A DNA stretch of 64,000 nt, from positions 135,038,001-135,102,000 of the forward strand of contig CM059431.1 of NCBI GenBank assembly GCA_030390025.1, given 5' to 3'. This DNA comes from Squalus acanthias. Lineage: Eukaryota. Positions 9,803 through 64,000 of this stretch are shown here, in pieces. Below the pieces are notes generated by a model that saw nothing but the letters and a program-made list of their open reading frames with translations, did not search any database and was not told the DNA's origin. A program made the translations under genes and the position numbers. Each line of letters starts with the position of its first letter. Position 1 is the first letter of the stretch.

Positions 9803-10540
9803 GGGGGAAAAATTCAGTTGCTTTGTGCCTCCCGTTAGCACCCTAAGTGGCAAAGCAACTAGCGCCCGGGCACAGCGCCACCAACGCCTCCTGCGAAATT
9901 CAGCGTGAGGTTTGCGGCGGCGGTAACTGTTAACGCCCCGCGGCGCTGCGCCGCCGGTGATGACGTCATCACCGTGCGCAGCACCCCACTCATACCCCGG
10001 CCGCGATATTCGGTAGCGCCCCCTGACTTACCGCCGGACGCTATGTCCGACAGGGTCAGGGGGACCTACCTGTGGTCGGGGCGGCGCTATTTAAAGGCGA
10101 GGTGCCGGGCAGCCATTTTTGTTGCTGGCCGCCTGCCAGCACCTGCCTCCGCTGCCCTCCCTGGCCTCCTGAGCACCCCCCCCCCCACCCCACCGCGGAG
10201 TGCTGGCTGCGCTCCATGAGCCCGGCACTTCACTTGAGTGCCGGGCTCTTTTGCCGGCACTCCGATCCCGGTGGCCCAGCTGGGCCCCGGGTTGCGCTGC
10301 GCAAGGCCCCTCCCCTTTAAGAAGGGGAGGAAGGCCTGCAATACCGCGGCACGTAGCGCCATGATATTCACTTGCAGCGCCCCAAGAGGGAGGCGGAGCG
10401 CTTCCAGTAGTGCCCCGCTTCCCTCTTGGGGCGCTACCAGTGAATTTCGGGCGCGGGGGGTGCTAATTTTTTCAGGCCGCTAAAAATAGCGCCCCGGCGA
10501 AGTTAGCGCCCCAAAGGGGGCATGACTCCATTTTTCCCCC
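9803..10540. mobile_element. Non-autonomous PIF/Harbinger MITE
   Basis: Ends GGGGGAAAAAT...ATTTTTCCCCC, flanked by a TTA/TTA 3-bp TSD. GC-rich; sister copy at 55221-55926. Confidence 0.85.
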
Positions 10541-11574
10541 TTATTTCCTAATGTAGTCATAGATTTTTGTATAATTTCCCATCAAAATCTGAATCTCTTG
10601 TGAACTTTACAATAGAAGTTTCAAAGTGTGGTCATTAGACCAAAAGTGGGCTGCAAAATCAACGGATTTCTGTTCATCTCAGGCCATGAATTCTGACCTC
10701 AGTGTCTCGAGAATTCAGCATTTTATATTTTATTTTATATTTATTAACTTACGAGTGTATACTATATAATAATAACAAATGCTTTCTGCCATTATAGCAC
10801 TATTTTTCATTGGGTAACTTAACAATGGCTGGAATTTTCCTGCTGCCATGCATGCAGGATTGGAGGCGGGTCCGAGTGAAAGTGGAAATAAACTAGTGCG
10901 GGTTGACAACCCGCCGTCATCCCACCTCCACGTGCCTTTAACTCGGGCACATTTGCCAGTGAGGCACCGACCCGAACGGCAGAGACGGGCGACCCAATTT
11001 AGATAATTATTAGCTTGTTGTCACACCCTTAAACATCTTTTTAACCAGACCTTTGCAATTTCACTGCATGACCACAGGAATCATGCAGCTTGGGGACCAC
11101 GTCTGTCAAGCTGAGGCGGAAGTTCAGTGGCCATTGATCGAGGTCATTAATGCAGAGCATGGAAAGCACAATAGATACTGCCACCTGAAACCTGCTTACT
11201 TTCCTAAGGGAAATGCTGTTGCTGAGTTCATTTTCAGCACAGATTTAGGTTTCTAGAGGTAGCAAGTGTTTTCAGCGAATTCGGGAACCACTGTCAACTC
11301 TTGCTACAACCTATCACACCATTGACAGATTGCTTCTCTCATCTCTACTTGACCTGCCATCTATTACATCAGCATGGGTGCCACATATACTGTCTCACCT
11401 TGGTCCTCAGAATCGGACCAGGATGAGCCCCTACACCAGCAGCAGCAGGCACACCAGCAGCACTAACAACAACACCACTAACCTTCTCCTCAACGACCTG
11501 ATGCTCCACAGGACAGAGGCAGGGTTGCACCATGCCAGAGGCGATACCCCCAACACAGGGTATACAGGCAGAGG

Positions 11575-12675
11575 ATGAGTTTCCTCAACATGAGTGAGCA
11601 GCAGTGCCAAAGGAGGCTCAGCCTATCGCGCCAGGTCATTGCAGACACTTGCAGTTTACTGGAGCAAGACCTGCAGCCCAGAGGACCTGGCGGACACACC
11701 TTACCAGTGGCTGTCAAAGTCACCAGCACCCTCAACTTCTTCGCCTCAGGCTCCTTCCAGGGATCTGCAGCAGACATTTGCGGCATCTCACAGTCGGCTG
11801 CCCACAGATGCATCACCCAGGTCATTGATGCCATGTCTGACAAGTCATCCAATTATATCAACTTTGCCACTGATGACGCCAGTGTTACTGAGCGGGCGCT
11901 CGGCTTTGCCGCTCTGGCTGGCTTCCCACGGGTGCTGGGTGTCATCGACTGCACACATGTGGCTATCAGGGCACCCCATCATCACCCAGGAGTGTTTGTC
12001 AACCGCAAGGGCTTCCACTCCCTCAATGTGCAGCTTGTCTGCAACCATAGGAAGATCATCATTCATGTGGGCGCCAAATTCCCTGGCAGCTGTCATGACT
12101 CTTTCGTCCTACGCCAGTCCACCCTCCCTCAAGTCTTTGCACCACCAAACACACTTACTGGCTGGCTGCTTGGAGACAAGGGCTATCCACTGAAGACGTG
12201 GCTCATGACACCCTTCAGGAGGCCAAATACTGAGGCCGAGGAGAGATATAATGAAAGCCACATGTCCACCAGATGTGTTATAGAGCAGACAATAGGCATG
12301 CTGAAAATGCACTTCAGATGCCTTGACAGATCTGGAGGAGCCCTTCAGTATGCACCAGCCAGGGTCTCCAGAATCGTTGTGATCTGCTGCACCCTGCACA
12401 ACATAGTGCAGCAGCGAGGATTAGCGCTGCATGAGGAGCAAGGCACTGAGCACACAGCCTCTTCAGAGGAGGAGGAGGAGGAGCATCAGCTGGAAGACAA
12501 GGAGAAGCAGGAGGAACCTGAGGTCCAGATGCCACCAGCACCTGAGCACATTGCTGCCCAGGAGGCCAGTGATGACCTCATCCTGGCCAGATTTACTTTA
12601 CTTCATGCATTACACCCATATGGCTGCCACATGCTGCACCAGGTCCCCCCCCCTCCCACCACAACAACACCATAA
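11575..12675 (+). CDS. Harbinger (HARBI1-like) DDE transposase, open core
   Basis: 366-aa ORF with [66 protein letters not shown] and an acidic tail. The likely ancestral start, ATG 11374, is in frame but separated by two TAA codons (11464, 11479). Confidence 0.88.
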
Positions 12676-12861
12676 AGCATCCCTACAATAACCAGGCCAT
12701 TCCTTTCACACTGACCACCATTGCTGGAGGTAATGTTAGGTCTCACCCTTCACTCCAACTCACTAAGCCACTTCCAAAGTCGCAGACAGAATTGACCATG
12801 GTGAAAATGAAGAGTTTTATATGTGACATAAGAGTAACGGAACCTTAACAGAAACATTTAT

Positions 12862-14525
12862 TTAAACACCCATGTGCTTACCCTTGTGCATCTTTCTCTT
12901 ACGTGTGCTTCTACAAGGTGCAACCCCTGTGGCTTCAGCAGAGGTAGAGGCAGCCTGCTCACTTCCCTGCTGCCACTGCATAGACACTTTTAGCAGACAT
13001 CCTCTGGGTTTTGGAGCCTCTGGTGGCCCCACCAAAGTCTGCTCCTTCTGCGACTGTGCAGGGGCGGTCTCGACCATATCAATCCCAGGAGGCATCTGGG
13101 GCTCTGACTTTTCCCCTCTCACTGTCCTCCCTCTCATGGGCCACCCACACTTCCCTCCTAGCAAGGGGCTGGAGACTACCTTGCTGCACAGCAGTGGGGC
13201 TATGAGGAATCAAGTCTACACTGGCATCCCTCCTAGAGAGGAGGTCTATAACCTCTGCCATCTATTCTCCATAGAGACCATGTGCTCCTGTGAGTGGCAC
13301 ATTAGCTGCTCCATACAGGTGGCCATCCTTTCCGTGGAAGAGCCTACAGTCGCCATCACCTGCGACATGGTGCTGCTCATGTTGGAGATGGACTCCTCCA
13401 TTCTCTGCAAATTTGCAGACATCGTGGTCGCAAAACCTGTCAGAGCCTCCTACATTTCTTCCTGCACCACCAGGATTGCCCTCTTTCTGGATGGCCCCCG
13501 AGGCTCAGCGTCTGCATGCAGCTGAGCAGAGCTGGGAGCGTCCTGCACCCGCTGGCGAGGAGTCTCCACTGCTGTCCCTGTCTCCACCATCTGCTCTTGC
13601 TCACTTGTGACTTGTGAGACATCAGGTGACAACACTGCTCTATCTCGCGTGGGACCCACCGAAGTGTGCGTAACTGCGCTGGTGCTGGGTGCGCTTATGT
13701 CTGGTGACGATGCACCCTCAGAGGCTGGAGGCTCCTCTGAGGAGTCATCTTCCTCTTCCTCCAGGACAGTGGGGGCGGGGGGCTCTTGATGGACCTTTGG
13801 GAGTGTAAAGAGATGATTTCGAAATGTTATATCAAGAATGGCTAATGATACCATTGTGCACATGATGAACATTCACTCGCTGCTGACATCAATCCCCATA
13901 TGAGTGACTGCTGTATGCCATGTGGCTGTAAGAGATGTAATTCTGTCACCAGGTTGTTGAGATGGCCCTGTCTCTCCGTCTCCCACCTCCAGCTGCTCTG
14001 CAACTCCTGAGACATCCAGGGCGACCTCCACTGCTGGAGTTAAAGTGGCCAATGATGGAGGGCCACCTCCGGTTCTCTCCCTTTCCCTCTTATTGTGGGC
14101 TCGCTTCTCCTGCAAGGAGGGAAAGAAGAGAAGTTTGAGTGAGAGTGATGGAATGAGTGTAAGGAATGGATAGGTTACATGTTTAGAGGGTGACTATGAT
14201 GGAGTGGGGTGCCAATGCCAAGTGGCCTCCTTGTGTGTTGTTAGTTGGTATGATTGCATTAGGATGAGGCTGAATGTGAAGGGTGGTTAGTAAGATGGGG
14301 ATGTGATAATGTAGATAGAGAGAGAGGGATGGGTGGACATGCAAGGTATGTTGGTGTGAGTAATGATGTGCAGGAGTGGGCTTGGGAAGGCAGAGTGATG
14401 GGGATGTGATAAGAGGCACAGCAGGATGAAGTTGAGTGTGGCTTTGCACTCACCTTTCCTGATTTAATGAGATAATTGAAGCGCTTCTGGCACTGCACCC
14501 AGGTCCTCCTCACAACATCCCTGCC
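12862..14525 (-). pseudogene. Harbinger Myb/SANT-like DNA-binding protein gene (3 exons, 5' truncated)
   Basis: Exon 1 end RRTWVQCQKRFNYLIKSGK|GTGAGT (about 14454); exon 2 14109-13950 (EKRAHNKRERERTGGGPP), bounded by AG/GT; exon 3 from 13794, acidic and Ser/Pro-rich, ending in basic STRKRKMHK. Frameshifts present. Confidence 0.8.
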
Positions 14526-14528
14526 CTT

Positions 14529-14622
14529 CTCCAACAAGAGCGAGTTTAACCAATGCCCCTTGACATTCAACGGTATTACCATCATTGAATACGCCCACAA
14601 TCAACATCCTGGGAATCACCAT
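14529..14622 (+). mobile_element. Short LINE RT fragment
   Basis: Translates SNKSEFNQCPLTFNGITI, then after a frameshift TINILGITI, typical of the region downstream of a LINE RT domain. Confidence 0.55.
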
Positions 14623-15881
14623 TGTTGGACTTTCTCCTACTACTGTTCAGACCTCGAGAATTACAAATATGTGTAACAATGACAGATAAGTTTGTTATCA
14701 ATAAAAATGGTCTTTATTCACACTACAGTTTATTATCAACTCAAACTTACATAAAAATACTCCCAGCAATTTACATGCCCTACAGTTTACTCCAGCAATT
14801 TATATGCTCTACAGTTTCGTACATAAAAATACTCCCAGCAATGTATATACCCTATCATTTATTAATAAGTCAAACGTACATAAAATTACCCCCAGCAATA
14901 TATATATGCCCGATGTCCGACTTTCATGCATATACTCCTCCTCGGGTGATCAGTCCGAATCAGTGGTCGGCTTCAAGAGTCGACGGGCCAATCAAAACAG
15001 CTTCCTTTGTCCTTTGAATTTCTGAGCTTTTGTCTTTCCCCTTTACAATGCTCTCCTGCACGTTCTCCTCGTGTCTTCTCCTCGTGTCTTCTCCTCGTGT
15101 CTTCTCCTCGTGTCTTCTCCTCGTGTCTTTATAATGCTCTCCTGCATGTTCTCCTCGTGTCTTCTCCTCGTGTCTTTATAATGCTCTCCTGCACGTTCTC
15201 CTCGTGTCTTCTCCTCGTGTCTTTACAATGCTCTCCTGCATGTTCTCCTCGTGTCTTCTCCTCGTGTCTTTATAATGCTCTCCTGCTTTTAATGCTCTCC
15301 TGCACGTTCTTCTCGTGTCTTCTCCTCGTGTCTTTACAATGCTCTCCTGCACGTTCTCCTCGTGTCTTCTCCTCGTGTCTTCTCCTCGTGTCTTTATAAT
15401 GCTCTCCTGCACGTTCTCCTCGTGTCTTCTCCTCGTGTCTTTATAATGCTCTCCTGCACGTTCTCCTCATGTCTTTATAATGCTCTCCTGCACGTTCTCC
15501 TCGTGTCTTCTCCTCGTGTCTTTATAATGCTCTCCTGCATGTTCTCCTCGTGTCTTTTCCAGCTGCGTCCCTCTGATAAAGCTTCAAAGATCAATTCTCC
15601 AAATGCATGTTGCTCTGTTTCCTGATTGGAGCACCGGCTCATGTGATCCCAGGTATGCTTCCGCACACGCTGCGCCCCTGGGATCCGTGGGCCATTAGGC
15701 TGCCCTCCAGTATGCAGCGTTAAACAGCAAGTTCGCAAAGGAGGGGCCCCATTAGGTAAGTTCACATTCTTTTCGGATGCCAGCAGCGTACTCTGTAGGT
15801 ACGCCGCTGACCGCAAAATCCAGACCATTATAGTTCTGTGAGATTCTTCATTTAGACAGTTTGACATACTTTCCTCTAACA
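14623..15881 (-). mobile_element. Candidate solo LTR containing minisatellites
   Basis: TGTTGGA...TCTAACA inverted ends; on the minus strand CCAAT (about 15625), repeat block, then AATAAA (about 14713-14718). No clean TSD. Confidence 0.4.
15040..15556. repeat. Compound minisatellite: TTCTCCTCGTGTC (13 bp) interleaved with TTTATAATGCTCTCCTGCACG (21 bp)
   Basis: Directly visible tandem units, often forming a 47-bp higher-order unit. Confidence 0.95.
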
Positions 15882-16490: not shown

Positions 16491-18266
16491 GGCCGGAATT
16501 TTCCTGGTGCTCAGTGGATGGGATTGGTGCCGGGTCAGCAGTGAAATTTGATTTGATTGACAGCGGGTCTGGAACCTGCTGTCAAATCGCGCATATTTGC
16601 GTTTCCCAATGTCGGGTCTGCCAGCGCTGAGCAGACCCAACCGGCAGCGACGGGGGACCTAATTTAAACAATTATTGGCTTGTTGACAAGCCCTTAAGAT
16701 TGAATTTAATCTTACCTTTTGATTTTAACAGCTCGCCCATGGCTTCCACGCTGCTCCTCGACCCCGTCTGTTAATCTGAGGTGGAAGTGAGTGGCCATTG
16801 AATCAGCTGATGAGTGAAAGCTTGAAATGTAATATAAAAGCTTCCACTTCACACCAGTTCACTTTCCAAGCACAGAGGCTGTTGCTTTCTCCCTTTGGAA
16901 CGCAGATTGAGCTTAATGCTGGCTGCAAGTGTTTGGAGCAAACTCTCCAGCCAGTGTCACCTCAATGCAGCAACCTCTCTCACCATTGACAGATTGCTTC
17001 TGTCATCTCCACTTCAACTGCTATCTACTCCATCAGCATGGGTACCATTTACACTCTCTCACCTTGATCCTCAGAATCTGACCACAATGAACCCCAACAC
17101 CAGGTACACCAGCAGCACCAACAACAACACCAAACTTCTCCGCAGTCAACTGATACTGCACAGGACAGAGGGCATCAGCACCCAACCACATTGCTGCCCG
17201 GGAGGCCAGGGATGGCCTCACCATGGCCAGATTTACTTCACTTGATGCTGTACACCTTGGCTGTCACATGATGCGCCAGGTTGGCACCACCCCACACCAA
17301 CACCATAAAGCATCCCTACAATGACCAAGCCATTCCTTTCACACTCATCACCATTGCGGGGGGTACCGTTATGTCTCACCATTCACTACAACTCACTAAG
17401 CCACTTCCAAAGGTGCACACAAATCTGTCCAAGAACGCAAAGTGTTCAAAATAAAGGTTTTAATATTTGACAGCACATTAACAGAAACTTTACATGAACA
17501 TTGGATAAAACACCCAAGTAGCTACCCTTGTGTGTTGTTAGTTGGTATGATTGCACTAGGATGAGGGTGAGTGTGAGGGTTTGCGAATGAGATGGGGATG
17601 TGATAATATAGATAGAGAGGGACGGGTGGAAGTGCAAGGCAAGTTGATGTGAGTAAGGATGTGCAGGAGTAGGGTAGGGAAGGCAGAATGATGGGGATGT
17701 GATGAGAGGCACAGGAGGATGAGGTTGAGTGTGGCTTTGTACTAACATTTTGTGATCTACTGAGATCACTGAAACATTTGCACCACTGCACCCAGGTCTT
17801 CCTGACGACATCCCTGCTTGTGCCCTCCTCTGCAATGTGCAACCAGGCTGTGTTGGTCTCCTGGGGCGGTGTCTTCTGCCCATGGGAAGGGAAGAGGACC
17901 TACCTGTGTGCTCAGACTCCCTCCATAAGCATATGGAGGGAGTCATGGCAGAGTCTGGGTGCAGCCATGTGCCTTTGTACAGTCATTGTCAGTGTTTGCA
18001 GCACCTCAATGGTACAGAACACTGACAGCACAAATGTCAAGACAAATGTGGCCATGGTCCCTTTAAGGAAACCGGCTGATGATGCGTCATCAAATGACGT
18101 CACCAGACCCGCTTCCTCTAATTGGCTGGGAAAGGTGCTGGGCGGGTTTGACAAGCCCAATCAAGGGAAATTCATTTCACACAGCGGGCTGGAGCCAACA
18201 GCGTGGCTGCGACCTGCCACCGACATTGCCCGCAATGGACCCACCAAGATTAGGAAAATCGCAGCC
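16491..18266 (+). mobile_element. Non-autonomous Harbinger deletion derivative
   Basis: TIRs GGCCGGAATTTTCC / GGAAAATCGCAGCC. Colinear with the 10827 element but lacks the transposase core and Myb exons 2-3; keeps Myb exon 1. Confidence 0.85.
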
Positions 18267-20574: not shown

Positions 20575-21250
20575 GGGCTGGATTTTCATTGACCCGTGGA
20601 GGTGGGTTTGGAGGCATGTGGGGGGTTAAAATTGCGAAAAATGGCAGGGCGGGCACATGCCCGCCTCCATCCCGCCTCCATGCAATTTTCATTAAATCGT
20701 GTCTGCTGGTCCCGATTAGAGGCGGGATAGGCTGTTAAGGCCCTTAACAAGCACTAAATTGCCTCTATAATGCCATTTTGAAAGGACTTTGTGATTTTAA
20801 CCCTTTTTCTACGTGAAGCACGCCTGTTCTGAACCACGAATGTGAAACCTGGCGGGAGCACATTTGGATGGCTGGCTGGCTGGCTGGCTGGATGGATGGA
20901 TGGATGACATATCTGGGAGTGGTGGTGGATGGGAGACACATCTGGGAGTGGTGGTGCAAAAATATCTGGGAGCAGACTTATGGCTGCTGCTGCTCATTTT
21001 GCATCCAGGTCCTCTCACAGCAAAGGCCAGGCAGTCTTTGCAGACCTTCAATGCAGCAGCAATGATGACATCATCAGAGGCGACTTTCAGACTGAAAACA
21101 CTAATTGGGTCATGGGTTCCCACATGCTGGAACTCAATTGCCCAATTAGGTGAAAATCGCATCAATCTCCCACATCCAATTGCAGTCGGGTGGATAACAC
21201 GAAAAGTGGGTAACACGACCCCAACCCGCCCCAGTATCAAAATCCAGCCC
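20575..21250. mobile_element. Harbinger MITE inside CR1
   Basis: Perfect 12-bp TIR GGGCTGGATTTT/AAAATCCAGCCC; GTT/GTT TSD; internal (GGCT/GGAT)n. Sister copy at 57509-58276. Confidence 0.9.
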
Positions 21251-26008: not shown

Positions 26009-26605
26009 ACTACATACAGAGTGGTCTGCACAGAGTGCCTCTAAACAGAGTGTTAAAGTTGGGTATTTGGAGAGAGTGGAAGGGCTCGATTTTAATAGCC
26101 CTGAGGAGGCGGGTTTGGAGGTGGGTCTGTAGCGAAAATCAGAAAAAATGGCTTCAGACACCCAACCCGCCTCCATCCCACCCGATTTTCGTGAGTGTCT
26201 ATTTAGCCGCTCCCAAACTGACCCGACTGGAACCGATGGGACAGGTAGTTAAGGCAGCCTGTTAATTGCCTTGCTAATCCTATTTTTATAGTTGTTTCCC
26301 ATATTCATGCCTCTGGCCCCTGTTTCCCATCTTGTCAGAAACAGGCCAGCTGCAAGGAGACGAGTTGCTGGAGGACATGATTTGTAGTAATTGGTGGAGC
26401 ACTTTAAAAGCGCCCCTGAAACATGGCTGGCATTCAAATGCAACAACCTTGTTGTTGGGAGGTTTGGGATAAGATTTTGCAAATCTACTGACTTGACTGT
26501 TCAAGTTGACAGCCATCTGCAGTGTGACCTGATAGGAATAATTTCAGGCCACTTCTAGTGTGCGCTTGCAAGCTACTTGCCTCAAGTGAAATCTATAGCT
26601 ACGGG

Positions 26606-27812
26606 ATGGGAAGCATTTATATCCTCTCATCCTGGTCGTCAGATTTGGAGGAAGAGCAGCCGCGGCAGCACCATAACTAGCCACAACAGCAGCACCAGCA
26701 CCAGGAGCACCAACCTCCTCCTCACCCACTTGATGCTGCACAGGGCAGAGGGCGTCAGTGCAGGGCTGCACCTTGCTGCAGGAGATACCCCCAACACAGG
26801 GTTTACAGGCAGAGGATCAGCTTCCTCAGCGTGACTGAGCAGCAGTGCCAAAGGAGGCTGAGACTTTTGAGAGACGTAGTCGCTGACATCTGTGCAATGC
26901 TGCACCAAAACCTGGAGCCCAGAGGAGCGGGTGGGCACTCCTTACCAGTGGCTGTCAGAGTCACCACCGCACTCAACTTCTTTGCTTTGGGCTCCTTCCA
27001 GGGATCAGCTGCAGACATAAACGGCATCTCCCAGTCGGCCGCACACACCTGCATCATGCAGGTCACCGATGCCCTCTTTGCAAAGGCCCACAATTATATC
27101 CACTTCTCCACGATGGCCCAAGTGTGACGGCGTGTGCGGTTGGCTTTGCCAATATGGCAGGCTTGCCAATGGTGCAGGGCATCATTGACTGCACACATGT
27201 AACCATTAGGGCAACCCATCGCAACCCAGCTGTATTTGTCAACCGCAAGGGATTCCACTCCCTGAATGTCCAGCTGGTGTGTAACCACAGGAAGATCATC
27301 ATGCATGTTTGTGCAAAGTACACTGGCAGTTGCCATGACTCTTCATCAGCTAAACCAACTTTCAGGATGGCTTCTTGGCGACAAGGGCTATCCCCTGAAA
27401 AAGTGGCTTATGACACCGATGAGGAGGCCATCAAATGATGCTGAGGAGCGGTACAATTTGAGCTACATATCCACCAGAAGCATCATCGAGCAAACCAACG
27501 GCTTGCTCAAAATGCACTTCCGATGCCTAGCCACAACTGGAGGAGCCTTGCAGTATGCACCAGCCAGGGTGTCCAGAATCGTTGTGGTCTGCTGTGCTCT
27601 GCACAACATCACACAGCAGCGCGGCTTAGTGCTGCCGCATGAACAAGTAGCTCAGCACACAGCCTCCTCTGAGGAAGAGGACAAGGAAGAGGATGAGGAG
27701 GAGGACGAGGAGTGACGCTTTGCGGGGCCGGATGTGGCCAATCCAGCAGCAGGCGAACACATTGCTGGCCGTCAGGGCAAGGGATGCACAAATCCATGAC
27801 AGATTCGCGTAA
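26606..27812 (+). pseudogene. Harbinger transposase pseudogene
   Basis: MGSIYILSSWSS...[11 protein letters not shown]...GIIDCTHV...LLGDKGY...CCALHN...EEED, with frameshifts and a deletion. Confidence 0.88.
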
Positions 27813-30400: not shown

Positions 30401-30516
30401 ATAGAGTCATAGAGTTATACAGCACCAGCCATCAAGCCCTGTCTATTCTAATCCCATTTTCCAGCACTTGGTCCATAGCCTTGTATGCTATGGCATTTCA
30501 AGTGCTCATCTAAATG
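30401..30516 (-). mobile_element. CR1 3' tail fragment inserted in CR1
   Basis: Reverse complement of the tail at about 57365-57508; possible CTA duplication. Confidence 0.75.
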
Positions 30517-43143: not shown

Positions 43144-43194
43144 CCAGCGACCACCGATGCTCCTCCGGCTGACTCTGATGCTTCCCCAACACCC

Positions 43195-45184: not shown

Positions 45185-48100
45185 CCCTTAGGTTAGGTAG
45201 TGGTACAGGTTTGGTTAGTGGTCAGGGACAGGACAGTGTGACTGCAACTCAGGCAGGTTAGGGGACCCCAGGTGCAGTGCTGGAGGAGCCTTGTCCAACA
45301 GGTATGATGTTCTTGCTACCTGTATGGATGAGGAAAAGCCTGTCGGATGGATGAGCAGTCTGACCAGGGCACCATGGTGCAGGAGGCCATTCAAGTGGGG
45401 GAAGTGAATGGGAATGTAGTTGTGGTAGGGGACAGTATTGTCAGGCGCGTGTAACAAGGGTAATACAGTAATCATGGGGGAATTTAATCTACATATAGAC
45501 TGGGCAAACCAAATTTGCAGTAATAGTGAGGAGGACGAATTAATGGAATGTATGTAAGATAGTTTTCTAGATCAGTATGTTGAGGAACGAACTAGGGAAC
45601 AGGCTATTTTAGATCTAGTATTGTGCAACGAGAAAGGGTTAATTAATAATCTTGTAGTAAAGAGGTCTTTAGGGAAGTGTGACCATAATATGATAGAATT
45701 TTATATTGAGCTTGAAAGTGACTTAGTTAAATCCGAAACTAGTGTCTTAAATCTAAACAAAGCAAACTACGTAGGTATGAGGGGTGAGTTGGCTAAGGTA
45801 GATTGGGAAACTACATTAAAAGGTATGACAGTGGACGAGCAATGGCTAGCATTTAAAGAATTAATACATAATTTACAACAAATATACATATTCCTTTATG
45901 GCACAAAAACCCCACAGGAAAAGTGGTCCAACCGTGGCTAACAAGAGAAGTTAAAGATAGTATTAGATCAAAGGAAGAGGTTTATAATGCTGCCAAAAAG
46001 AGTAGTATGCCTGAGGATTGGGAGGATTTTAGAATTCAGCAAAGGAGGACCAAGAAATTGATGAAGAAAGGGAAAATAGAATGAGAGTAAACTAGCGAGA
46101 GACATAAAATCAGACTGTAAAAGTTTCTATAGGTATGTAAAAGGGAAAAGATTAGCGAAAGTAAATGTGGGTCCCTTACAGGCTGAGACAGGAGAAATTA
46201 TAATGGGGAATAAGGAAATGGCAGAGAAATTAAACAAATACTTTGGCCGCGATTTTGTCGCCGCTCAGAGGGTGGGTTTGGAGGCGGGTCAGGTGGTAAA
46301 ATTGCAAATATTGACGGCGGGTTCCAATCCCGCCGTCAACCCGCCTCCGTGCAACTTTCCCAAAGGCGGCCTCCTAGACTCCCGATCGGTCCCGCCACCA
46401 AGCAACAGGATAGGCCCTTAAGGCAGTTAACTGCATCTGCCTGGATAATGCTATTTTGACAGTGGTTTTAGATTTTGCCACTTTTTCTGCGTGTTCCACG
46501 CCATTCCCAAACCCCGCCAGCTGATTGTGCCGGGTTCACAAGTGGCTGCCTTCTTCACAGCTGCAGCTCCAGCATAAAAATGGAGCTCTCAACAAGGCTC
46601 AGTTGCAGATGGCAGAACTTTGTTTTTTCAGGTCTTGGAAAACTTTTTGCAGGTCTACTGATCTTGGAAGTTGTGAAGCTGAGATCCATCTCCACTGTGA
46701 CCGCCTGGGAAAACCCTCTCCCCACATTGACTGAGCACTTCCTCAACTGAGATATCTACCAGCAGCATGGGAACCATTTATTTCCTTTCATCCTGGTCCT
46801 CCGATTCGGAGGAAGAGCAGCTGCGGCAGCAGCAGAACCAGGCACAACAACAGCACCAACAGCAGGAGCGCCAACCTCCTGCTCAGCCACCTGATGCTGC
46901 ACACGGCAGAAGGTATCAGCACAGGGCTGCACACCGCCACAGGGTTTACAGGCCGAGGATGACCTTCCTCAACATGACTGAGCAGCAGTGCCAAAGGAGG
47001 CTGAGACTTTCGCGAGAGGTAGTCGCTGACATCTGCGCAATGCTGACCAACACCAGGAGCCCAGAGGAGCGTGTGGACACTCCTTACCAGTGGCTGTCAA
47101 AGTCACCATCGCCCTCAATTTTTTTGCTTCAGGTTCCTTCCAGGGCTCATCAGAAGACATCAGCGGCATCTCCCAGTTGACCATATCACGCAGGTAACAG
47201 ATGCCCTCTTTGCAAAGGCGCACAATTACATCCACTTCTCCATGGAAGAAGCAAGTGTAACCGCGCATGCGGTTGTCTTTGCAAATATGGCAAGCTTGCC
47301 AAGGGTGCAGGGTGTCATAGACTGCACACATGTGGCCCTTAGGGCACCCCATCACAACCCAGCTGTTTTTGTCAACCGCAAGGGCTTCCACTCCCTTAAC
47401 GTACAGCTGGTGTGTAACCACAAGAAGGACATTTTGCATGTTTGCGCAAAGTACCCTGGCAGTTTTCATGACTCATTCATCCTGCGGCAGTCTAGTGTGT
47501 ATCCGCTCTTCAATCTGCCAACACAGCTTTCCGGATTGCACTACTTGAGGGCAGCATTATCGAATAGTGAAGTGATTGTGTACATAGAGAGAGAGGGATG
47601 GTTAAGGGTGCAAGGGATGTAAGGGTAAAGTGGGATGTGCAGGAGTAGGTTGACAATGCAGAGTGCTGGTGATGAGAGGAGATGGGGAGCAGATTGAGGC
47701 CAAGTGTGATGTTATACTCACTTTTCCTAAGCGGACCAGGTCATTGAGCCTTTTTCTGCACTGCACCCAGGTTCGAGTGCACATGGAACTGGATCTCACC
47801 TCCTGAGCAATTTGCAGCCAGACTGCTTTGGTTTGCTGTGGTGGCTTCTTCCGCCCAGAGGATGGGAAGAGTACCTCCCTGCGCCCTCTGACTCCCTCCA
47901 CAAGAGCATAGAGGGAGTCATCATCAAATCGGGGAGAGGCCTTGGCCCTTGAGGTAGTCATGGCAGCAGTTGTCAGAAGGAAATCCAGCAGCAAATAATG
48001 AGAGAATGAACCAAGGCTGCATGGGCCCCTTAAATGCAGTTGGCTGACAGACGTCAGCAGAGGCGAGTTCCAGACCCCAAACACTAATTGGCCAGGGGAG

Positions 48101-49998
48101 CGCACGCGCAGGGACTCAATTGCCCAATTAGGGCAAAATCGCAAATTTTTACCGGCTGAAAGCGGCGGTTGGACGGGAACCCGATGACCACCTGACCCGC
48201 ACCCAAACCACAACCAATGGGAAAATCACGGCCTTGGTCTGTCTTCACGGAAGAAGACACAAAAAATTTCCTGGAAATAATGGACAACCAAGGATCTAGC
48301 GAGAATGAAGAACTGAAAGATATTAGTATTAGTAAAAAAGTAGTACTGGAGAAATTAATGGGACTGAAAGCCGATAAATCCCCTAGACCTGATGGCCTAC
48401 ATCCTAGGGTTTTGAAATAGTTGGCTATAGAGATAGAGGATGCATTGGTTGTCATCTTCCAAAACTCCATAGATTCTAGAACGGTTCCCGCAGATTGGAA
48501 GGTAGCAAATGTAACCCAACTATTTAAGAAAGGAGGAAGAGAGAAAACAGGGAACAATAGACCAGTTAGCCTGACATCAATAATAGGGAAAATGCTAGAA
48601 TCTATTATTAAGGACGTGGTAACAGGGCACTTAGAAAATAATAATAGGATTGGGCAGAGTCAACACGGATTTATGAAAGGGAAATCGTGTTTGGTGAATC
48701 TGTTAGAGTTTTTTGAGGTTGTAACTAACAGAATAGATAAGGGGGAACCAGTGGATGTTGTGTATTTAGATTTTCAGAAGGCATTCGATAAGGTGCCGCA
48801 CAAGAGGTTATTAAACAAAATTAGGGCTCATGAGATTGGGGGTAATAAACTAGCTTGGATTGAAGATTGGTTAACGGAGAGAAAATAGAGAGTAGGAATA
48901 AACAGGCCATTTTCGGGTTAGCAGGCTGTAACTAGTGGGGTACCGCAAGGATCAGTGCTTGGTCCTCATCTATTCACAATCTACATCAATGATTTGGATG
49001 AGGGGACCAAAAGTAATATATCCAAGTTTGCTGGTGATCCAAAGCTGGGTGGGAATGTAAGTTGTGAGGAGGATGCAAGGAGGCTTCAAGGGGATATAGA
49101 CAGGCTAAGTGAGTGGGCAAGAATATGGCAAATGGAATATAATGTGGAGAAATGTGAAGTTATCCACTTTGGTAGGAAAAACAGAAAAGCAGAGTATTTT
49201 TTAAATGGTGAGAGATTGGGAAATGTCGGTGTTCAGAGGGACCTGTGTGTCCTTGTACACAAATCACTGAAAGTTAACATGCAGGTACAGCAAGCAATTA
49301 GGAAAGCAATTGGTATGTTGGCCTTTATTACAAGAGGATTTGAGTATAAGAGTAAAGACGTCTTACTGCAATTATATAGGGCCCTGGTGAGACCACACCT
49401 GGAGTATTGTGTACAGTTTTGGTCTCCTTACCTAAGGAAGGATATACTTGCCATAGAGGGAGTGCAACGAAGATCCACCAGACTGGTTCCTGGGATGGGG
49501 GAATTTTCATCTGAGGACAGATTGAGTAGACTAGGCCTATATTCTAAGTCATCCTCGGGTCCGAGGGACTGCCTAAGAAGAGAAGATATTCTCTAGAGTT
49601 TAGAAGAATGAGTGGTGATCTCATTGAAACATACAAAATTCTTACAGGGCTTGACAGGGTAGATGCAGGGAGGATGTTTCCCCTGGCTGGGGAGTCTAGA
49701 ACCAGGGGTCACAGTCTCAGAATAAGGCGTCGGCCATTTAGGACTGAGGTGAGGAGAAATTTCTTCACTCAGAGGGTGGTGAATCTTTGGAATTCTCTAC
49801 CCCAGAGGATGCTCAATCGTTACGTATATTCAAGACAGAGATGGATAGATTTTTGAATATTAAGGGAATCAAGGGATATGAGGATAGTGCAGGAAAGTGG
49901 AGTTGTGGTAGAATATCAGCCATGATCTTACTGAATGGCGGAGCAGGCTCTAAGGGCCAAATGGCCTACTCCTGCTCCTATTTCTTCTGTTCTTCTGT
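45185..49998 (+). mobile_element. Degenerate CR1 LINE (ORF1 piece, EN, RT, tail) interrupted by a Harbinger
   Basis: CR1 motifs continue across the insertion (KLNKYF|...SVFTEED); RT motifs at 48421-49856. Confidence 0.92.
46245..48233 (+). mobile_element. Harbinger transposon, internally deleted (5' transposase plus Myb exon 1)
   Basis: TIR GGCCGCGATTTT / AAAATCACGGCC (11/12). Transposase from MGTIYF (46767) to about 47535. Myb exon on - at about 47720-47961: MTTSRAKASPRFDDDSLYALVEGV...WVQCRKRLNDLVRLGK|GTGAGT. Confidence 0.9.
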
Positions 49999-50489: not shown

Positions 50490-52251
50490 GGCTGGAATTT
50501 TTCGGGGGGGTCAGTGGGCGGATCAGGTGGAAAAGTGTTTTTTTTAGACAGCGGGGCAGACCCCGCTGTCAACCCGCCGCCACGCGCCTTTCCCAATGTC
50601 GGGTCTGTCAGCGCTGAGCAGACCCGACAGGCAGCGGCGGGCGACCCAATTAATCTCATTAACATCTAGTTGACAGATCATTAACAGGCTTTTTTAACTT
50701 ACCTTTTCACTTTAACTTCATGGCCATGGTAACCACACTGTTTGGAGACCACGGCTGTCAACCTGAGGCGGGAGTTCAGTGGCCATTGCTCCAGCTGATT
50801 ACTTGACAGCTTCAAATGTACAGTAAAAGCTCCCACCTGACAGATAATCACCTTCCTCAGCCACAAGCTGTATCTCAGTCCATTTCCAGCACAGATTCTG
50901 CAGGCTTTCCACTTTCCACTCTCCATCCAGTATCACCTCATTGGAAGAACTCTCTCACCATTGACAGGATGCTGCTGTCATCTCTACTTCACCTGCCATC
51001 TATTCCATCAACATGGGTGCCCTTTATACTGTCTCACCTTGGTCCTCAGAATCTGACCAAAATCAGCCCGAACACCAGCAGCACCAGGCACACCAGCAGC
51101 ACCAACATCAACACCAACCTTCTCCGCATTACCTGATGCTGCGCAGGACACAGGGCATCAGCACCTGACCACATTGCTGCCCGGGAGGTCAGGGATGGCC
51201 TCACCATGGCTAGATTTACTTCACTTGAAGCTGTACACCCTGGCTGCCACATGATGCATCAGGTTGGCACCACCCCACACCAACACCATAAAGCATCCCT
51301 ACAATGTCCGAGCCATTCTTTTCACACTCACCACCATTGCGGGGGGTACCGTTATGTCTCACCATTCACTGCAACTCACTAAGCCACTTCCAAAGGTGCA
51401 CACAAATCTGTCCAAAAATGCAAAGTGTTGAAAATAAAGATTTCAATGTTTAACAGCACATTAACAGAAACTTTACACGAACATTGGATAAAACACCCAA
51501 GTGGCTACAGTTGTGTGTTGTTAGTTGATATGATTGCACTCGGATGAGGGTGAGTGTGAGGGGGTGGCTAGTGAGATTGGGATGTGATAATGTAGATAGA
51601 GAGAGAGGGATGGGTGGAGGTGCAAGGTAAGTTGGTGTGAGTAAGGATGTGCAGGAGTAGGGTAGGGAAGGCAGAGTGATGGGGATGTGATGAGAGGCAC
51701 AGAAAGACAAAGGTGAGCGTGGCTTTGTACTAACGTTTCGTGATCTAATGAGATCATTGAAAGGTTTGTGCCACTGCACCCAGGTCCTCCTAACGACATC
51801 CCTGCTTGTGCCCTCCTGTGTAATTTGCAACCAGGCTGTGTTGATCTCCTGGGGAGGTCTCTTCCGCCCATCGGAAGGGAAGAGGAGCTTCATGCATGCT
51901 CTGACTCCCTCCATAAACATATAGAGTGGTCATGGGAGAACCTGGGTGCCACCGTACACCTTTGTGCAGTGCTTGTCAGTGTTTGCAGCACCTCAATGCT
52001 GTAGAACACTGACAACACAAATGTCAAAATAAAGTTGGCCATGGTCCCTTTAAGGAAACCGGCTGACGCATCATGAAATGATGTCACCAGACCCGCTTCC
52101 TCTAATTGGACCGGCAAACGCGCTGGGCGGGCTTAGCAAGCCCTATCAAGGGAAAATCATTTTGGACAGCCGGATGGAGCCAGCAGCAGGGTCGGGAACC
52201 ACCACTGATATCGCTCGCCCTGGACCTGCCAAGTTGAGCCAAATCCCGGCC
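50490..52251 (+). mobile_element. Non-autonomous Harbinger deletion derivative (sister of 16491-18266)
   Basis: TIR GGCTGGAATTT / AAATCCCGGCC; TCT/TCT TSD; same two deletion junctions as the 16491 copy. Confidence 0.9.
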
Positions 52252-52704: not shown

Positions 52705-52842
52705 TCGGGTGAATTTCCCCAGGGGTTCTGTTGCTTTTCTGCCATAATTTTGGTGGAAAGACTGCGGCTATCCCATGAAAACAGCATAAACAACCAAAGT
52801 TTTTGTGGATGAACAGGAGAACATCCATGGAAATTCATCCCC
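52705..52842. mobile_element. Small MITE (about 140 bp)
   Basis: Inverted ends GGGTGAATTTCC / GGAAATTCATCC. Confidence 0.5.
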
Positions 52843-54099
52843 CTTCTCTCTCTCTCTCTCTCTCTCTCACTCTGTTTAATTCATTTTATATTAATTTTAA
52901 AATTCTTACAAAAGCTACAACAGGTGTGTAATTAGTACACTGTCATTCTTCTCACTGTCTCACACAGGCATACATTTACACTGCTTCTTTAAAAAATACT
53001 CAAGAAAAACTTTCCTCAATTAAGCATTTGAAATTTGACCTCTTGTTTTTCAAAATTATTTTAAGAAAACTACTGAGCAAATGCTCTACTAAGTACAATA
53101 GTGCATCAAGACAGCTGACTGAATCGTACTGGGAAATTGTGTACCCTGCATATGGTCAGACTGCAAAACCCAAAATCAGATCAGAGTAAACAACAACTTG
53201 AACAACATAAAAATGTTACAAGGTGCCTCATTGAGACATAATCAGAAAGAAATGGGCGACAAGCTAAATCAAGAAATAATAGGAGTGTTGGGACTATAAA
53301 TGGCTCACTTCCAAAAGGAAATCCTCACTGCTGACAGGGCCTTTTCCTCCCCAACAGAGCTCCAAATTCCAACCAGTAATAGCAGCAGGAAAACATCATG
53401 GCAACTATCGGTAGGGGAAGGAAAAGAATCCAGGAAAACCCTCTGATCACTGAATGAAGCACACAGCAATAGCTGCAGACCAGTGATCCGTCAACAAAAC
53501 AGTAGGCCCTGCGCAAAGGAACATACTATACCATTAGTCACTCAACCATATTTGAAACAGGCCAATCAATCTCCCTACCCCCACCCCCCACCCCACCACC
53601 GCCACCAACAGTATGCTAAAATGTTGCACACCCTCCCCACCAAATTGAGAAAAGATGTAGTTCCAGGATAAAGTAGTTCCAGGATAAAGCCAATCACCAA
53701 AGTTAGTCCAGGTGAGAAAGAACTTGTCCCTGACTGAGGAGCATCTAGCCTCCCCTCCCCAACACCACGTGGAGCATTCAGGCCTCCAGTCCACCCTCCA
53801 CAGAGCAGCATCTTGGGAGCTGCCCAATGACCACCTCTGTAGATTTCAGCACACAAAATTAACATCCCCCCCACCCCTCTACTGTGGAGCAATGGCCCAG
53901 TTCTCCATCCCCACCCCAACTGAAGACCATTCCATTCTCAAATCCCCATCATCAACAAAGTGCCATTCTGGGCTCCCACCACTTCAGCAGTTTGTATATT
54001 GACATTGGCATTGGAGCATTCAAACCTCAAGCCCCCATCCCCAATAAACAGGATGTTTACCTTGGACAAGCCCAAGGAAGATCATTCGGGCTACTGATT

Positions 54100-55220: not shown

Positions 55221-55926
55221 GGGGGTAAAATTGGGTTGCTTTGCACCTCCCATTAGAGCCCCGGGTGGGGGGGGGGCGCTAATGGGGCGCAAAGCCCCTA
55301 GTGCCTGGGCGTGGCACCGCTAACTCCTGCCTTGAAATTCAGCGGGAGGTTAGCGGTGGCAGTAGCTGGTAGCGTCCCGCGGTGCTGTGCCTCCAGCGAT
55401 GATGTCATCACCATGCTCAGCGCCCCGGCCGCAAACTTCAGATGCGCCCCCTGACCTACCGCCGGACGATATGTCCGATGGGACCAGGGTGGTGTTTTTG
55501 CGGCGGCGGCGCAAATTAAAGGACAGGTGCCGGGCGGCCATTTTCTTTTGCACCACCTGCCACCTGCCCCCTTCCGCTTCTTCATGCGGGGTGCCAGCTG
55601 CAATCGCTCAGCCCGGCACTCCTCTTGAGTGCGGGGCTCTTTTGCCGGCACCCCGCTCCCCGGTGGTCCAGCAGGGCCCCAGTGTGCGCTGCGCTAGGCC
55701 CCTCCCCTGTAATCAGCTCCGCATCATGTAATCAGGGGAGGGAGGCCTGTAATACCGTGGTGCTACGTGCCGACGCGCATTGCGCTGTTGCAAGGAGCGC
55801 CGCGATAATGAATGGTAGTGCTACCACTCAATTTACGGCGCAGGGGTGCTAACTTTTTCAGGGCGCTAAAAGTAGCGCCCCGGCGAAGTTAGCACCCCAA
55901 GGGGGGCGCGACTGAATTTTTCCCCC
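55221..55926. mobile_element. Harbinger MITE (sister of 9803-10540)
   Basis: GGGGGTAAAATT...AATTTTTCCCCC with a TAT/TAT TSD; colinear with the 9803 copy. Confidence 0.85.
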
Positions 55927-57508: not shown

Positions 57509-58276
57509 GGGCTAGATTTTGAATGACCCATGGAGTCGGGTTTGGAGGCGTGTGGGGGGTTAAATTTGCGAGGTCGGGGTTTCCGACCCCATCCCAACTC
57601 CATCCCGCCTCCACGCAATTTTGACAAAATCAGTCGCGGGTTTCCCGACTCCGTCCCGCCTCCAAGAGGTGGGAAAGGCCATTAAAGCCCTTAACAAGCT
57701 CTAAATTGGCTCTGTAATGCCATTTTGAAACGTTTTAGCTAGTTTAACCCTTTTCTGATGTGAAGTACGCCTGGTGTGAAACACTCCAGTGAAACCTGGC
57801 GGGAGCACAAGTGGACAGCTGACTATCAGCTGCAGGTCCACTATTACAACGGAGATGTGATGAAGGTTGTAGTAGTATTAGGTCTGAAAGTCGCCGCTGC
57901 TGCATTGAATGTGTTCAGAGACTGCCTGGCCTTTGCTGTGAGAGGACTTGGATGCAAAAAAAGTTCTCTCGCTCTCTCTCTCTCTCTCTCCTTTCCCCCC
58001 CATATTTTGCATCCAGGTCCACTCACATCAAAAGCAAGCCAGGCAGGTCCTCTCTCACCAACAGTCTCTGAGACAAGGCAGTCAGGATTGATGACATCAT
58101 CAGAGGCGACTTTCAGACTGAAACCACTAATTGGTTCATGGGTTCCCACATGCTGGAACTCAATTGCCCAATTAAGTGAAAATTGCATCATTCATCCACA
58201 TTAATCTGGAGTCGGGGGGAAAACACGAAATGCGGATTACACGACCCCAACCCGACCCCAAGACAAAATCCAGCCC
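57509..58276. mobile_element. Harbinger MITE (sister of 20575-21250), inserted in a CR1 tail
   Basis: GGGCTAGATTTT / AAAATCCAGCCC ends; long internal similarity to the 20575 copy. Confidence 0.88.
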
Positions 58277-59592: not shown

Positions 59593-60354
59593 GACCCAGG
59601 ATTTGCTAGAGCGGGGCATCTCGCAGTCTGCCTCGTTTGTTAGATTTTTTCCCCCACTCTTCAACTCGAAGGTTTTTTGCACCGCAACTTGCTGGAAGTG
59701 GGAGCTGATAATGAGGCATCTGGGACCTTGGTGAATGATGGGACCAACAGTCTAACTCCTCAACATTTAAGGATAAAGAAAGAAAGAAACAGAGGAATGA
59801 TGGAGAAGGAAATAGGTTGAATTAGAGTCAAATTAGATACAGAAATAGAAATAAAGAGAGGGAAATAAAAATTGGATTAAGCGAGAGAGAAAAGAGAGAC
59901 AGAAAGACAAAGTAAAAAAAATTTAAAAAGAAAATTACATTTTAAATTTTAAAAACCTCTGTAATCAATTTACGACCTACAGGAATGAGAATCCATAGCC
60001 TCATTTGTTCCCTTTCTGGGCCGGAGAAGTTGAGTGGCATTGCAGGAACCCTAAACTATTGGATCAACAAATCCTTCAACTTGATCATTACCAAGGATAA
60101 GATAACAATGCCAAGTACGAGCCCTAATTTTCTGTGGTGATTTTAATTTGTATTTACTGCGCAAATGCAGACATTTCTTGAAACTCATGGGGAGGTTAAC
60201 GACAAGCTGCCGGTTTTGAGAGGCTAATGGCAAATTCGTCCAGCAATTCATGGTGATTCACAACTCACCGGTTATCTCTTCCTCACCACAAATTGCTAGC
60301 TAATAATGGCGTGCGCATTAAACTCGTTGTTATTGTCTCAGCAAATTCTGGACC
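59593..60354. mobile_element. MITE with imperfect TIRs
   Basis: GACCCAGGATTTGCT / AGCAAATTCTGGACC; similar internal segment in the 63470 element. Confidence 0.6.
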
Positions 60355-61989: not shown

Positions 61990-62835
61990 AAGTCCCAGAC
62001 AAAGTGGCTCAAAACCAATAAATCCCCATGGGTAGATATTTACCTCAGAATGCTATGAAAGACTAGGGAGGAGTTTTGTGAGGCATTGACAGTCATTAGG
62101 CGGGAGTTACTGAACACTGGGAGTAGTTTGGAAACAGGTTACATTTCGAAAGGGTGCTAAAGCATACTGTGGCAATTACAGTACTGTGGAAATAGCTAAG
62201 AGTGAAATTAGAAGAGACCTAGGAGTCCTTTTAGACTCAACACTCAAATTGTCCAACCAATGGAGAGCAGCAACGAACAAAGTCAATAGAATGTTGAACT
62301 ATGTAGCCAAAATAATAGAATACAAGTCATGGTCAAATTGTGTAGTGCTGTAGTCAGACCGCACCTTGAGTACTGTGACTAGTTGTGATCAACAAGGCAC
62401 AAGACATTCAAGCACTGGAGTTAGGGTGGAGAATGATTGATCTCTAATGTCAGAAGTCTAAGTTATGAGAACAGATTGAAGAAACTTGGATTTTTCAGCC
62501 ATAAAAGGAGATGTCTAAAAGGTGATCTTATAAAAGTATATATGACACTTAATAATATGGAAACAGTAAATCCAGAAAAAGTTAATTACGAGAGTAATGG
62601 GTTACAGCTTCAAACCAGTAAAAGGCACATTTAGAACTGATATCAATGAGTTATTTTGCACATCAGGAATAATTAATTAATGAAATGGACTTTCAGATAG
62701 CGTAGTGGAGGTGAAAGCCCTGGAATCATTTAAGAAACAATTAGTTGCTGTCATGGGAGGGGCTTTAGGGTATTTCTGGATGGATGAACTAAAATGGGCT
62801 GAATAGCATCCCTCATCCATAATTATCTTGTAATT
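61990..62835 (+). mobile_element. Old, heavily decayed CR1 LINE
   Basis: Remnants of RDLGV, VRPHLEYC, LSYENRLKKLG and LKGDLIKVY, plus a tail-like end. Confidence 0.7.
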
Positions 62836-63469
62836 TTGTGATTAAATTAAAAAGACCCAACGATAGCTCAGCCATCAGTTAAACACCATTTTACTCTTAG
62901 CTTCCCCAAATATATCAAAGATTGATGTATTACTAATTACTTTATTTCTCTACTTCTGTATGATCAAGGATAATATGATTGAGAGTGTAACATTATTCAG
63001 TTAATTTCAGAATTGCAGTTACAACCTTAGCTATGTCTAAGTAACATAGTATAACAGTAACTTACATTCAATTTTGAAGATTACAGTGTGTGTTTGACAA
63101 AGTTATCTGATCACAGTTTAAATAGCAATGTTAGTGGTAACAACTGTGTGCTTCCTGTTTAAGTCTCTAATTTGGAAGAAAGTAATATTTGGTCTGATAA
63201 TAAGCATATAACTACGATATCAAATTAGTTCCATTTTCCTCTACTGTGTGTTGGCTTTGGCCTCTGTGATATATCTTGCTTCCTGAGTCCTCAGCAGTCT
63301 TCTTTTTCTAACTTCTCGCGAATACCTCAGGCGTCATACTATATTTATTATGCTTCTCCTAATTGAAGTCATTGAGTACATTATTGGATTACACTATCAT
63401 CATACTATCATACACTATCCTAACAGTGGAACTGTAGTTGAACACACTCTAAATGTTCTGAAACGCATT

Positions 63470-64000
63470 GGCCCGGATTTTGCGATCAGTGATGAAGGGA
63501 CAGCGCTCGCTGCTGACCTCGCTGCCCACAAAGATTTAGCAGGCTCTGTGGCATCAGTCTCCCCTATTACAATGCCAATTTCATTCTGTCACCATCTAAA
63601 GGGGATATCTGACATCCAGGAACAGTGAAGTCATCAAGCAAGCTGAGCAGCTATCAGATTGAAGCATTCTCACAAACAGCAAACCAAGAAGTAAAAAACA
63701 CTTCTAAAAACACTGATTATCATTCACTTTTTAATCATTTTACAAAGAACAAAATAAAGATTGGGACATAACGTGGGATTAAGGTAAAAGCTGAAATATC
63801 ATAAACAAACTTTAAAAAATAAAATGAAAATACATTTTTATTAATTAAAAAATCTATGGAATTTTTATCATGCAATGGAGGGAATGACACTCCATACTTC
63901 TAAAATTAGTTTTTCAGGGCCAGAGAGGTTGCTCAGCAGTAATAATGACTTAGTACGCCATTAAAAACTCAGTTACACCTCATTCAACAAGGCTTAACTT
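63470..64000. mobile_element. MITE or Harbinger-type element left end (runs off the window)
   Basis: GGCCCGGATTTTGC TIR-like start; similarity to the 59593 element. Confidence 0.45.

What the first reader, a model, noticed from the sequence alone, without database searches (positions are those of the whole stretch)
9803..64000. Full two-component PIF/Harbinger system (transposase + spliced Myb/SANT gene, derivatives, MITEs) in one intron
Seen: four diverged elements (10827, 26082, 34774, 46245) each pair a HARBI1-like DDE transposase with a convergent Myb/SANT gene. There are also two non-autonomous derivatives and at least seven MITEs, all starting with related GG(G)-N-ATTT TIRs. Most carry repeated subterminal GGAGGCGGG/CCCGCC motifs. 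Known: Harbinger elements such as zebrafish Harbinger3_DR need both proteins, the Myb protein binds subterminal motifs, and HARBI1/NAIF1 were domesticated from such elements. Inference: this is a multi-family cartilaginous-fish Harbinger radiation, possibly uncatalogued, with enough copies to rebuild an active transposon. The CCCGCC motif is the candidate Myb-binding site.
Basis: partly seen in the sequence, partly recalled or inferred. Interest (0 to 1): 0.7.

Follow-up and report, generated by a model that had tools for sequence, protein, structure and literature searches.

The report
Decayed shark Harbinger transposon families
This stretch of a shark gene's intron is crowded with broken copies of several two-gene 'cut-and-paste' jumping genes of a known type, a type that transposon surveys had called absent from sharks but that is very abundant here and seems to have given sharks and rays several ordinary genes.

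Summary
Real, but not a 'full' system. The window is the first intron of a shark HS6ST3 gene. Four PIF/Harbinger elements (10827, 26082, 34774, 46245) pair a DDE_Tnp_4 transposase with a convergent Myb_DNA-bind_5 gene. Two deletion derivatives, six paired-end MITEs and five orphan ends share GG(G/C)CNNGATTTT-like ends and 3-bp, AT-rich TSDs. All four elements are broken, and only element A keeps the spliced exons 2-3. They are four separate families (dN/dS 0.25-0.38), so this window cannot rebuild one. Relatives are very abundant: 110,285 contigs of one run lay on 5.5 kb. The GGCGGG motif is enriched but sits mostly at the transposase end, and one MITE family lacks it; Myb binding is untested. 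The elements work like zebrafish Harbinger3_DR, but the target looks like C|WWW|G, not CWG or TWA. Their transposases nest in an elasmobranch-wide clade already mislabelled 'HARBI1' in RefSeq. Two transposon surveys call Harbinger absent in sharks; two shark genome papers list it at class level. Side lead: conserved cross-order transposase and Myb clades suggest shark/ray domestications. New members of a known kind.

The parts
2339..2874 (+). Host gene HS6ST3, coding exon 1 (donor GT at 2875); the rest of the window is intron
   Evidence: 93% identical to Heptranchias HS6ST3-B residues 1-178; no hit for the rest of that protein in the window; PDB 5t03 hit
9803..10540 (.). MITE M1, GGGGGAAAAAT ends, TSD TTA/TTA, GGGGCGC-type inner motif
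   Evidence: 70% to M1b; very high summed depth in run X1
10827..14535 (+). Element A, left end only, truncated on the right; best-preserved copy
   Evidence: tree branch 0.05
11374..12672 (+). A transposase: ATG at 11374, stops at codons 31 and 36, then open to 12672; D-D-E intact
   Evidence: 81% to a Pristiophorus protein
12880..14535 (-). A Myb gene: exon 1 remnant 14454-14535; GT-AG intron of 344 nt; exon 2 13950-14109; GT-AG intron of 155 nt; exon 3 from 13794, with a frame break and four stops in the aligned frame
   Evidence: colinear with Heptranchias XP_067827223 (P0123) over residues 63-461
16491..18266 (+). Derivative N1 of the A lineage: transposase core and Myb exons 2-3 deleted, Myb exon 1 with stops
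20575..21250 (.). MITE M2, perfect 12-bp TIR, TSD GTT/GTT, inserted in a LINE; ends related to C/D/E
26082..34624 (+). Element C: transposase 26606 to about 27812 (two frame breaks, one stop), nested LINE about 27813-33810, Myb exon 1 33947-34177 on the minus strand (one stop)
34774..37292 (-). Element D: transposase about 35590-36767 (stop, D-to-N, 27-nt deletion); partial Myb exon 1 35055-35240 on the plus strand
40482..40930 (+). Additional Myb remnant (two exons) of a different Harbinger lineage; ends not found
   Evidence: tblastn E 5e-10 and 2e-8 to Pristiophorus P0128; separate clade; no Pfam hit
46245..48233 (+). Element E: transposase 46767-47535 (frameshifted, cut); intact Myb exon 1 47722-47961 on the minus strand with a GTGAGT donor
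   Evidence: three-helix model pLDDT 84; nearest folds Zeste and GT-1, E 0.15-0.26
50490..52251 (+). Derivative N2, same deletions as N1, TSD TCT/TCT
52706..52843 (.). Short paired-end element (138 bp)
55221..55926 (.). MITE M1b, TSD TAT/TAT
57509..58276 (.). MITE M2b, inserted in a LINE tail
59593..60354 (.). Paired-end element with degenerate TIR; TSD not matched
15813..15826 (.). Orphan right end, not of the A family (similar unpaired ends at 44360, 44890, 56017, 63470)

Best explanation
These are dead copies of at least four (probably five) once-active, two-component Harbinger families of an elasmobranch-wide lineage, plus non-autonomous derivatives and MITEs that the families moved in trans. 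Shown here: the anatomy, the lesions, the TSDs, the past selection and the abundance. The autonomous form was about 4.2 kb (inferred from A plus the right part of N1): a single-exon DDE transposase facing a three-exon Myb gene, between 12-14 bp TIRs. Inferred from Harbinger3_DR and Ping/Pong: the Myb protein bound the element ends and brought the transposase into the nucleus, and the transposase cut the element out and inserted it at AT-rich 3-bp sites. The preferred site here is roughly C|WWW|G. The repeated GGAGGCGGG boxes are the likeliest Myb sites for the A/C/D/E/M2 group (about 50%). The GGGGCGC boxes of M1 may belong to another Myb lineage, such as the 40.5-kb remnant (about 30%).
For: Pfam pair DDE_Tnp_4 + Myb_DNA-bind_5, the same pair listed for HARBINGER3_DR in PMC4482050 Table S5. 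Canonical introns and colinearity with a RefSeq Heptranchias protein. TSD statistics. C at position -4 in 15 of 28 ends (P 4e-4; 0.015 after 40 tests) and W at -1 in 27 of 28. dN/dS 0.25-0.38 between copies. CpG o/e 0.27-0.37 in the transposases. Nesting with LINEs in both directions. In run X1, flanks have depth 12-14 while the element body has summed depth mostly 1.5-8.7e5 from 110,285 contigs.
Against: No intact element was seen, and no genome was held in which to look for one. No canonical Myb splice joint was among the 15 of 294 joints shown. Binding of the Myb domain to any motif was not tested. 3 of 11 paired elements have no matching TSD. The tool states that summed contig depth is not a copy number. 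Neither HARBI1 nor Harbinger3_DR sequence was in the tree.
Confidence: 0.88

Rival explanations
1. The A family is still active: intact masters exist elsewhere and the window only samples old copies.
For: 10,344 of 110,285 contigs in X1 are at least 99% alike to the window, though they are short. At the first Myb exon-3 stop nearly all depth reads another base. A has a short branch and an intact DDE.
Against: Most contigs are 90-95% alike, and 318 places show another letter in at least 20% of depth, 118 of them A>G or T>C. Five organism labels share 0.36-0.46 of the 31-mers, which fits old shared copies. Nearly all annotated shark relatives look decayed.
Confidence: 0.15
2. The GGAGGCGGG boxes are host promoter GC-boxes driving the transposase gene, or mere shared ancestry, not Myb-binding sites.
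For: 7 of 8 full motif hits in coding elements lie at the end upstream of the transposase. M1 MITEs amplified without the motif. GGGCGG is the Sp1 site (recalled).
Against: The boxes are tandem and inverted within 200 bp of the TIR and are kept in M2 MITEs that have no gene. GGCGGG is in 9 of 11 ends, including Myb-proximal ends.
Confidence: 0.35
3. Element A's transposase is a domesticated, expressed gene that uses an internal start.
For: Stop-free from 11482 to 12672, triad intact, branch 0.05.
Against: Two N-terminal stops, a broken partner gene, CpG depletion, very many relatives, and a position inside a clade of decayed Pristiophorus copies.
Confidence: 0.03

Closest known systems
Harbinger3_DR (= NuwaI-2_DRer in Han et al. 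2015, PMC4482050)
   Same: DDE_Tnp_4 + Myb_DNA-bind_5, 12-bp TIR, 4204 bp. The spacing between the HDS and GD blocks is 23 residues in both. 49 of 92 printed core residues are identical to element A (counted by eye from Fig. S3).
   Different: Its TSD is CWG, seen in 0 of 11 elements here. Its Myb protein is 221 aa against about 465 aa for the shark type (P0123). Its binding site was not seen (the Sinzelle 2008 paper is not held).
NuwaII group (e.g. NuwaII-4_XTro, Harbinger-n_CPB)
   Same: GG-starting TIRs, two ORFs, and a C and G flanking a 3-bp TSD. 50 of 92 printed core residues are identical to the Xenopus element (by eye).
   Different: Their TSD is TNA. Here position -1 is T in 15 and A in 12 of 28 ends, so the site is WWW, not TNA.
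RefSeq 'putative nuclease HARBI1' and 'MYPOP-like/NAIF1-like' models of Pristiophorus, Heptranchias and Heterodontus
   Same: Same lineage: up to 81% identity; the clade of window plus Pristiophorus sequences has SH-aLRT 99.7.
   Different: They are labelled as genes, not described as transposon families. C, D and E form their own subclade (98.8).
Domesticated HARBI1/NAIF1 and MSANTD1-4 (PMC9392472)
   Same: Derived from the same two protein types.
   Different: Those are single-copy jawed-vertebrate genes. No sequence recognisable as HARBI1 (recalled N-terminus) was among the best 120 of 302 hits.

Membership tests
PIF/Harbinger (PHIS) superfamily | DDE_Tnp_4 transposase with D-D-E triad | tested here: met
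   triad complete in A and C, altered in D, cut in E
PIF/Harbinger (PHIS) superfamily | Second gene with Myb/SANT domain inside the same ends | tested here: met
   complete in none
PIF/Harbinger (PHIS) superfamily | Short TIRs starting GG | tested here: met
   G at positions 1 and 2 in 27 of 28 ends; ends were picked by this pattern; 8-13 of 14 bases pair
PIF/Harbinger (PHIS) superfamily | 3-bp TSD | tested here: met
   4 of 11 exact, 4 more at 2 of 3; no empty sites examined
PIF/Harbinger (PHIS) superfamily | Both proteins needed; Myb binds the ends and the transposase | not testable with these tools
   Bench assay needed
PIF/Harbinger group sensu Han 2015 | TWA TSD | tested here: not met
   1 of the 4 exact TSDs is TWA (TTA); the others are TAT, GTT, TCT
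NuwaI (Harbinger3_DR group) | CWG TSD | tested here: not met
   0 of 11
NuwaII | C|TNA|G target | tested here: inconclusive
   C at -4 in 15 of 28 ends, but TNA is not fixed
Nuwa clade | Transposase falls in the Nuwa clade | tested here: inconclusive
   53-54% identity to printed Nuwa cores, counted by eye; Fig. S3 shows no PIF/Harbinger-group sequences and none were in my tree
Described Repbase/Dfam family | At least 80% identity to a catalogued consensus | not testable with these tools

The most novel reading that the evidence does not exclude
Sharks and rays harbour an undescribed, elasmobranch-wide Nuwa-type Harbinger radiation with a relaxed C|WWW|G target. It makes up a sizeable share of some squalomorph genomes (28% of this intron). 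It was domesticated repeatedly, giving at least three transposase-derived genes (two with the catalytic E replaced by K, R or Q) and at least one Myb-derived gene conserved across orders, all hidden under the labels HARBI1 and MYPOP-like. This would be a shark parallel to the HARBI1-NAIF1 pair.
Probability: 0.45. Interest if true: 0.62.

Novelty: new member of a known kind. Interest (0 to 1): 0.42.

Why it matters
Two transposon surveys state that PHIS/Harbinger elements are absent from sharks (PMC4482050) or from the elephant shark, and one asks for other cartilaginous fish to be checked (PMC9179366). This window shows the opposite for at least one shark lineage, with several families and high abundance. 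Many shark 'HARBI1' and 'MYPOP-like' gene models are therefore transposon debris that inflates gene counts, while a few look like real new genes. Families with different end motifs and different Myb domains would allow a direct test of how the DNA-binding partner sets element specificity. The mechanism itself is already known.

Tried and rejected
The whole genome is not held. A longer-protein search with the E Myb exon found nothing; the representative library then gave 41 hits. No PDB sequence relative of the transposase was found. The single-sequence fold was poor (pLDDT 58) and was replaced by an alignment-based one. Complex prediction of the A transposase with the Heptranchias Myb C-terminal part gave no verdict (score 0.01, alignments not used); it is not evidence either way. 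No RNA holder was listed; two runs guessed to be RNA showed family contigs but cannot show transcription. Raw-read run X22 gave 40 reads, 97% running on unlike. The end at 15826 was rejected as A's right end: it has no similarity to the right ends of N1/N2. No partners were found for the orphan ends at 15826, 44360, 44890 and 56017. My first guess of HS6ST2 (recalled) was rejected for HS6ST3. Earlier findings of the scan: none in 3 look-ups. A family-level description of shark Harbingers or of their domestication was not found in paper searches; subscription papers, Repbase and Dfam were not searchable. Supplements of PMC12498223 and PMC8455134 gave no Harbinger text; their repeat tables may be pictures. 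bioRxiv supplements (Greenland shark Table S1) are closed and may bear on abundance and novelty.
Full report
Setting. The window starts with coding exon 1 of a shark HS6ST3 gene (2339-2874, 93% to Heptranchias). No later exon is present, so the rest is intron. It is filled with LINE remnants (RVT_1 and endonuclease hits) and Harbinger-type pieces. The eleven best-defined Harbinger pieces cover 17,187 bp, 28% of the intronic part. Closest proteins come from Pristiophorus, Heptranchias and Heterodontus, which points to a squalomorph shark (inference). No genome was held.

Anatomy. A (10827 to about 14535) has a transposase from ATG 11374 with stops at codons 31 and 36 and an otherwise open frame with D-D-E intact. 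Facing it is a three-exon Myb gene with GT-AG introns of 344 and 155 nt, colinear with the 465-aa Heptranchias model XP_067827223. Exon 1 is cut by a LINE-like fragment, exon 3 is broken, and the right end is missing. C (26082-34624) is frameshifted and split by a 6-kb LINE. D (34774-37292) has a stop, D-to-N and a 9-codon deletion. E (46245-48233) is cut after the first catalytic D but keeps an intact Myb exon 1, which folds as three helices (pLDDT 84), nearest to Zeste and GT-1 (weak E-values). C, D, E, N1 and N2 have no exon 2 or 3 sequence. N1 and N2 are deletion derivatives of the A lineage. The M2/M2b MITEs share both ends with C/D/E, while M1/M1b share nothing beyond the end motif. A further Myb remnant at 40482-40930 belongs to another lineage.

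Ends and targets. Eleven elements have paired ends. Four have exact 3-bp TSDs (P 2.5e-5 against the window-wide rate; one lies in a microsatellite), four match at 2 of 3, and three do not match. Over 28 ends the flank is W at -1 (27), -2 (25) and -3 (22), and C at -4 (15; P 4e-4, 0.015 corrected; paired ends are not independent). This reads as C|WWW|G. Han et al. 2015 (PMC4482050; passages, sections 7 and 8, and supplements 1-2 seen) define groups by TWA, CWG (which includes HARBINGER3_DR) and C|TNA|G. None fits exactly; the sample is small.

Motif. GGCGGG is enriched in the ends (18 hits in 9 of 11 ends against 2.8 in shuffles), and 13 of the 14 GGAGGCGGG copies in the window lie within 200 bp of an end. 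But 7 of the 8 copies in coding elements are at the transposase-proximal end, and M1/M1b have GGGGCGC instead. A Myb site is plausible by analogy: PMC2836001 and PMC9392472 (passages) report that the Harbinger3 Myb protein binds the ends and imports the transposase. A promoter GC-box is the rival.

Families, age, abundance. Pairwise dS is 0.34-0.77 with dN/dS 0.25-0.38, so the four diverged while active and are separate families. In trees (122 of 124 rows, two dropped for coverage; a 59-row subset), all shark and ray sequences form one clade (SH-aLRT 99.7). The window copies group with Pristiophorus copies (99.7), and C/D/E form a subclade (98.8). Only the best 120 of 302 hits were available. 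On 9400-14900, run X1 laid 110,285 contigs; the flanks match with 2 differences in about 360 bp at depth 12-14, while most bins of A and M1 sum to 1.5-8.7e5. The tool warns this is no copy number; my rough reading is thousands to tens of thousands of relatives. X1 may be the source sample. Most relatives are 90-95% alike, the transposases are CpG-depleted, and five organism labels share 36-46% of the words. This fits an old burst, but activity elsewhere is not excluded.

Literature. [quoted passage not shown] PMC9179366 (passages) found none in the elephant shark and asks for other species to be checked. The whale shark paper lists PIF-Harbinger (PMC8455134, passages). The grey reef shark paper calls Tourist and Harbinger the commonest DNA transposons within 1.58% of the genome (PMC12498223, passage). 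The Greenland shark preprint gives 3.88% DNA transposons in the passages seen. The C. inopinata preprint (passages) restates the TWA and two-gene features. Searches found no family-level description. Repbase and Dfam could not be searched.

Side lead. Among the relatives are clades with high identity across orders. T1 is found in 7 galeomorph species (80-98%, E replaced by K or R in the four where the motif was read). T2 spans a ray and 4 sharks (87-97%). T3 covers 4 batoids (83-99%, E replaced by K or Q in the two aligned). Within-species transposon copies have medians of only 58-71%, biased low by 90% clustering. A Myb clade spans rays, galeomorphs and Heptranchias (support 0.95, full-length identity 42-98%). 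These look like domesticated genes that PMC9392472 does not list in the passages seen. Synteny, copy number and selection were not tested.

Verdict. These are decayed members of a known superfamily that works like Harbinger3_DR. Their interest lies in the host group, the abundance, the relaxed target and the domestication lead. Interest 0.42.

Noticed in passing
proteins P0005/P0007/P0172-P0177; P0020/P0022/P0185-P0187; P0026/P0029/P0188-P0189; P0009/P0010; P0024/P0034: Transposase clades conserved across shark and ray orders, often with the catalytic E replaced: candidate elasmobranch domestications, all labelled HARBI1 or uncharacterized.
   Followed up: partly
proteins P0125/P0127/P0131/P0133-P0136/P0140: Myb clade conserved across rays and sharks. 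In two catsharks it lies on the same-length contig as a T1 transposase gene, but not in whale or zebra shark.
   Followed up: partly
proteins P0050, P0062, P0074, P0097, P0101, P0102, P0108: Catalytically altered transposase clade from lungfish and coelacanth to birds; looks like another domesticated gene, possibly already described.
   Followed up: no
window 42309-43143 and 43197-44017: Two adjacent GC-rich minisatellites (25-bp x 30 and 41-bp x 20); the 25-bp unit loosely resembles the TIR.
   Followed up: no
window 15063-15560: 47-bp tandem array just inside the orphan end at 15826.
   Followed up: no
window about 30950-32650: Unidentified 1.7-kb CpG-rich insertion inside the LINE that splits element C, with a 92-bp tandem duplication.
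   Followed up: no
window 5312-5388, 6557-7004, 19559-20032, 21428-21894: Copies of a roughly 460-bp repeat, 80-86% alike; looks like an elasmobranch SINE (recalled).
   Followed up: no
window 642-998 (minus): ORF resembling a Gypsy-type gag fragment (by eye); no Pfam hit above cut-off.
   Followed up: no
window 10827-11240: The left end of A has far lower summed depth in X1 (4e2-6e4) than its body, suggesting a rarer subfamily end.
   Followed up: no
window 60049-60114 and 61242-61307: 66-bp inverted repeat at 92%, unrelated to the Harbinger ends.
   Followed up: no
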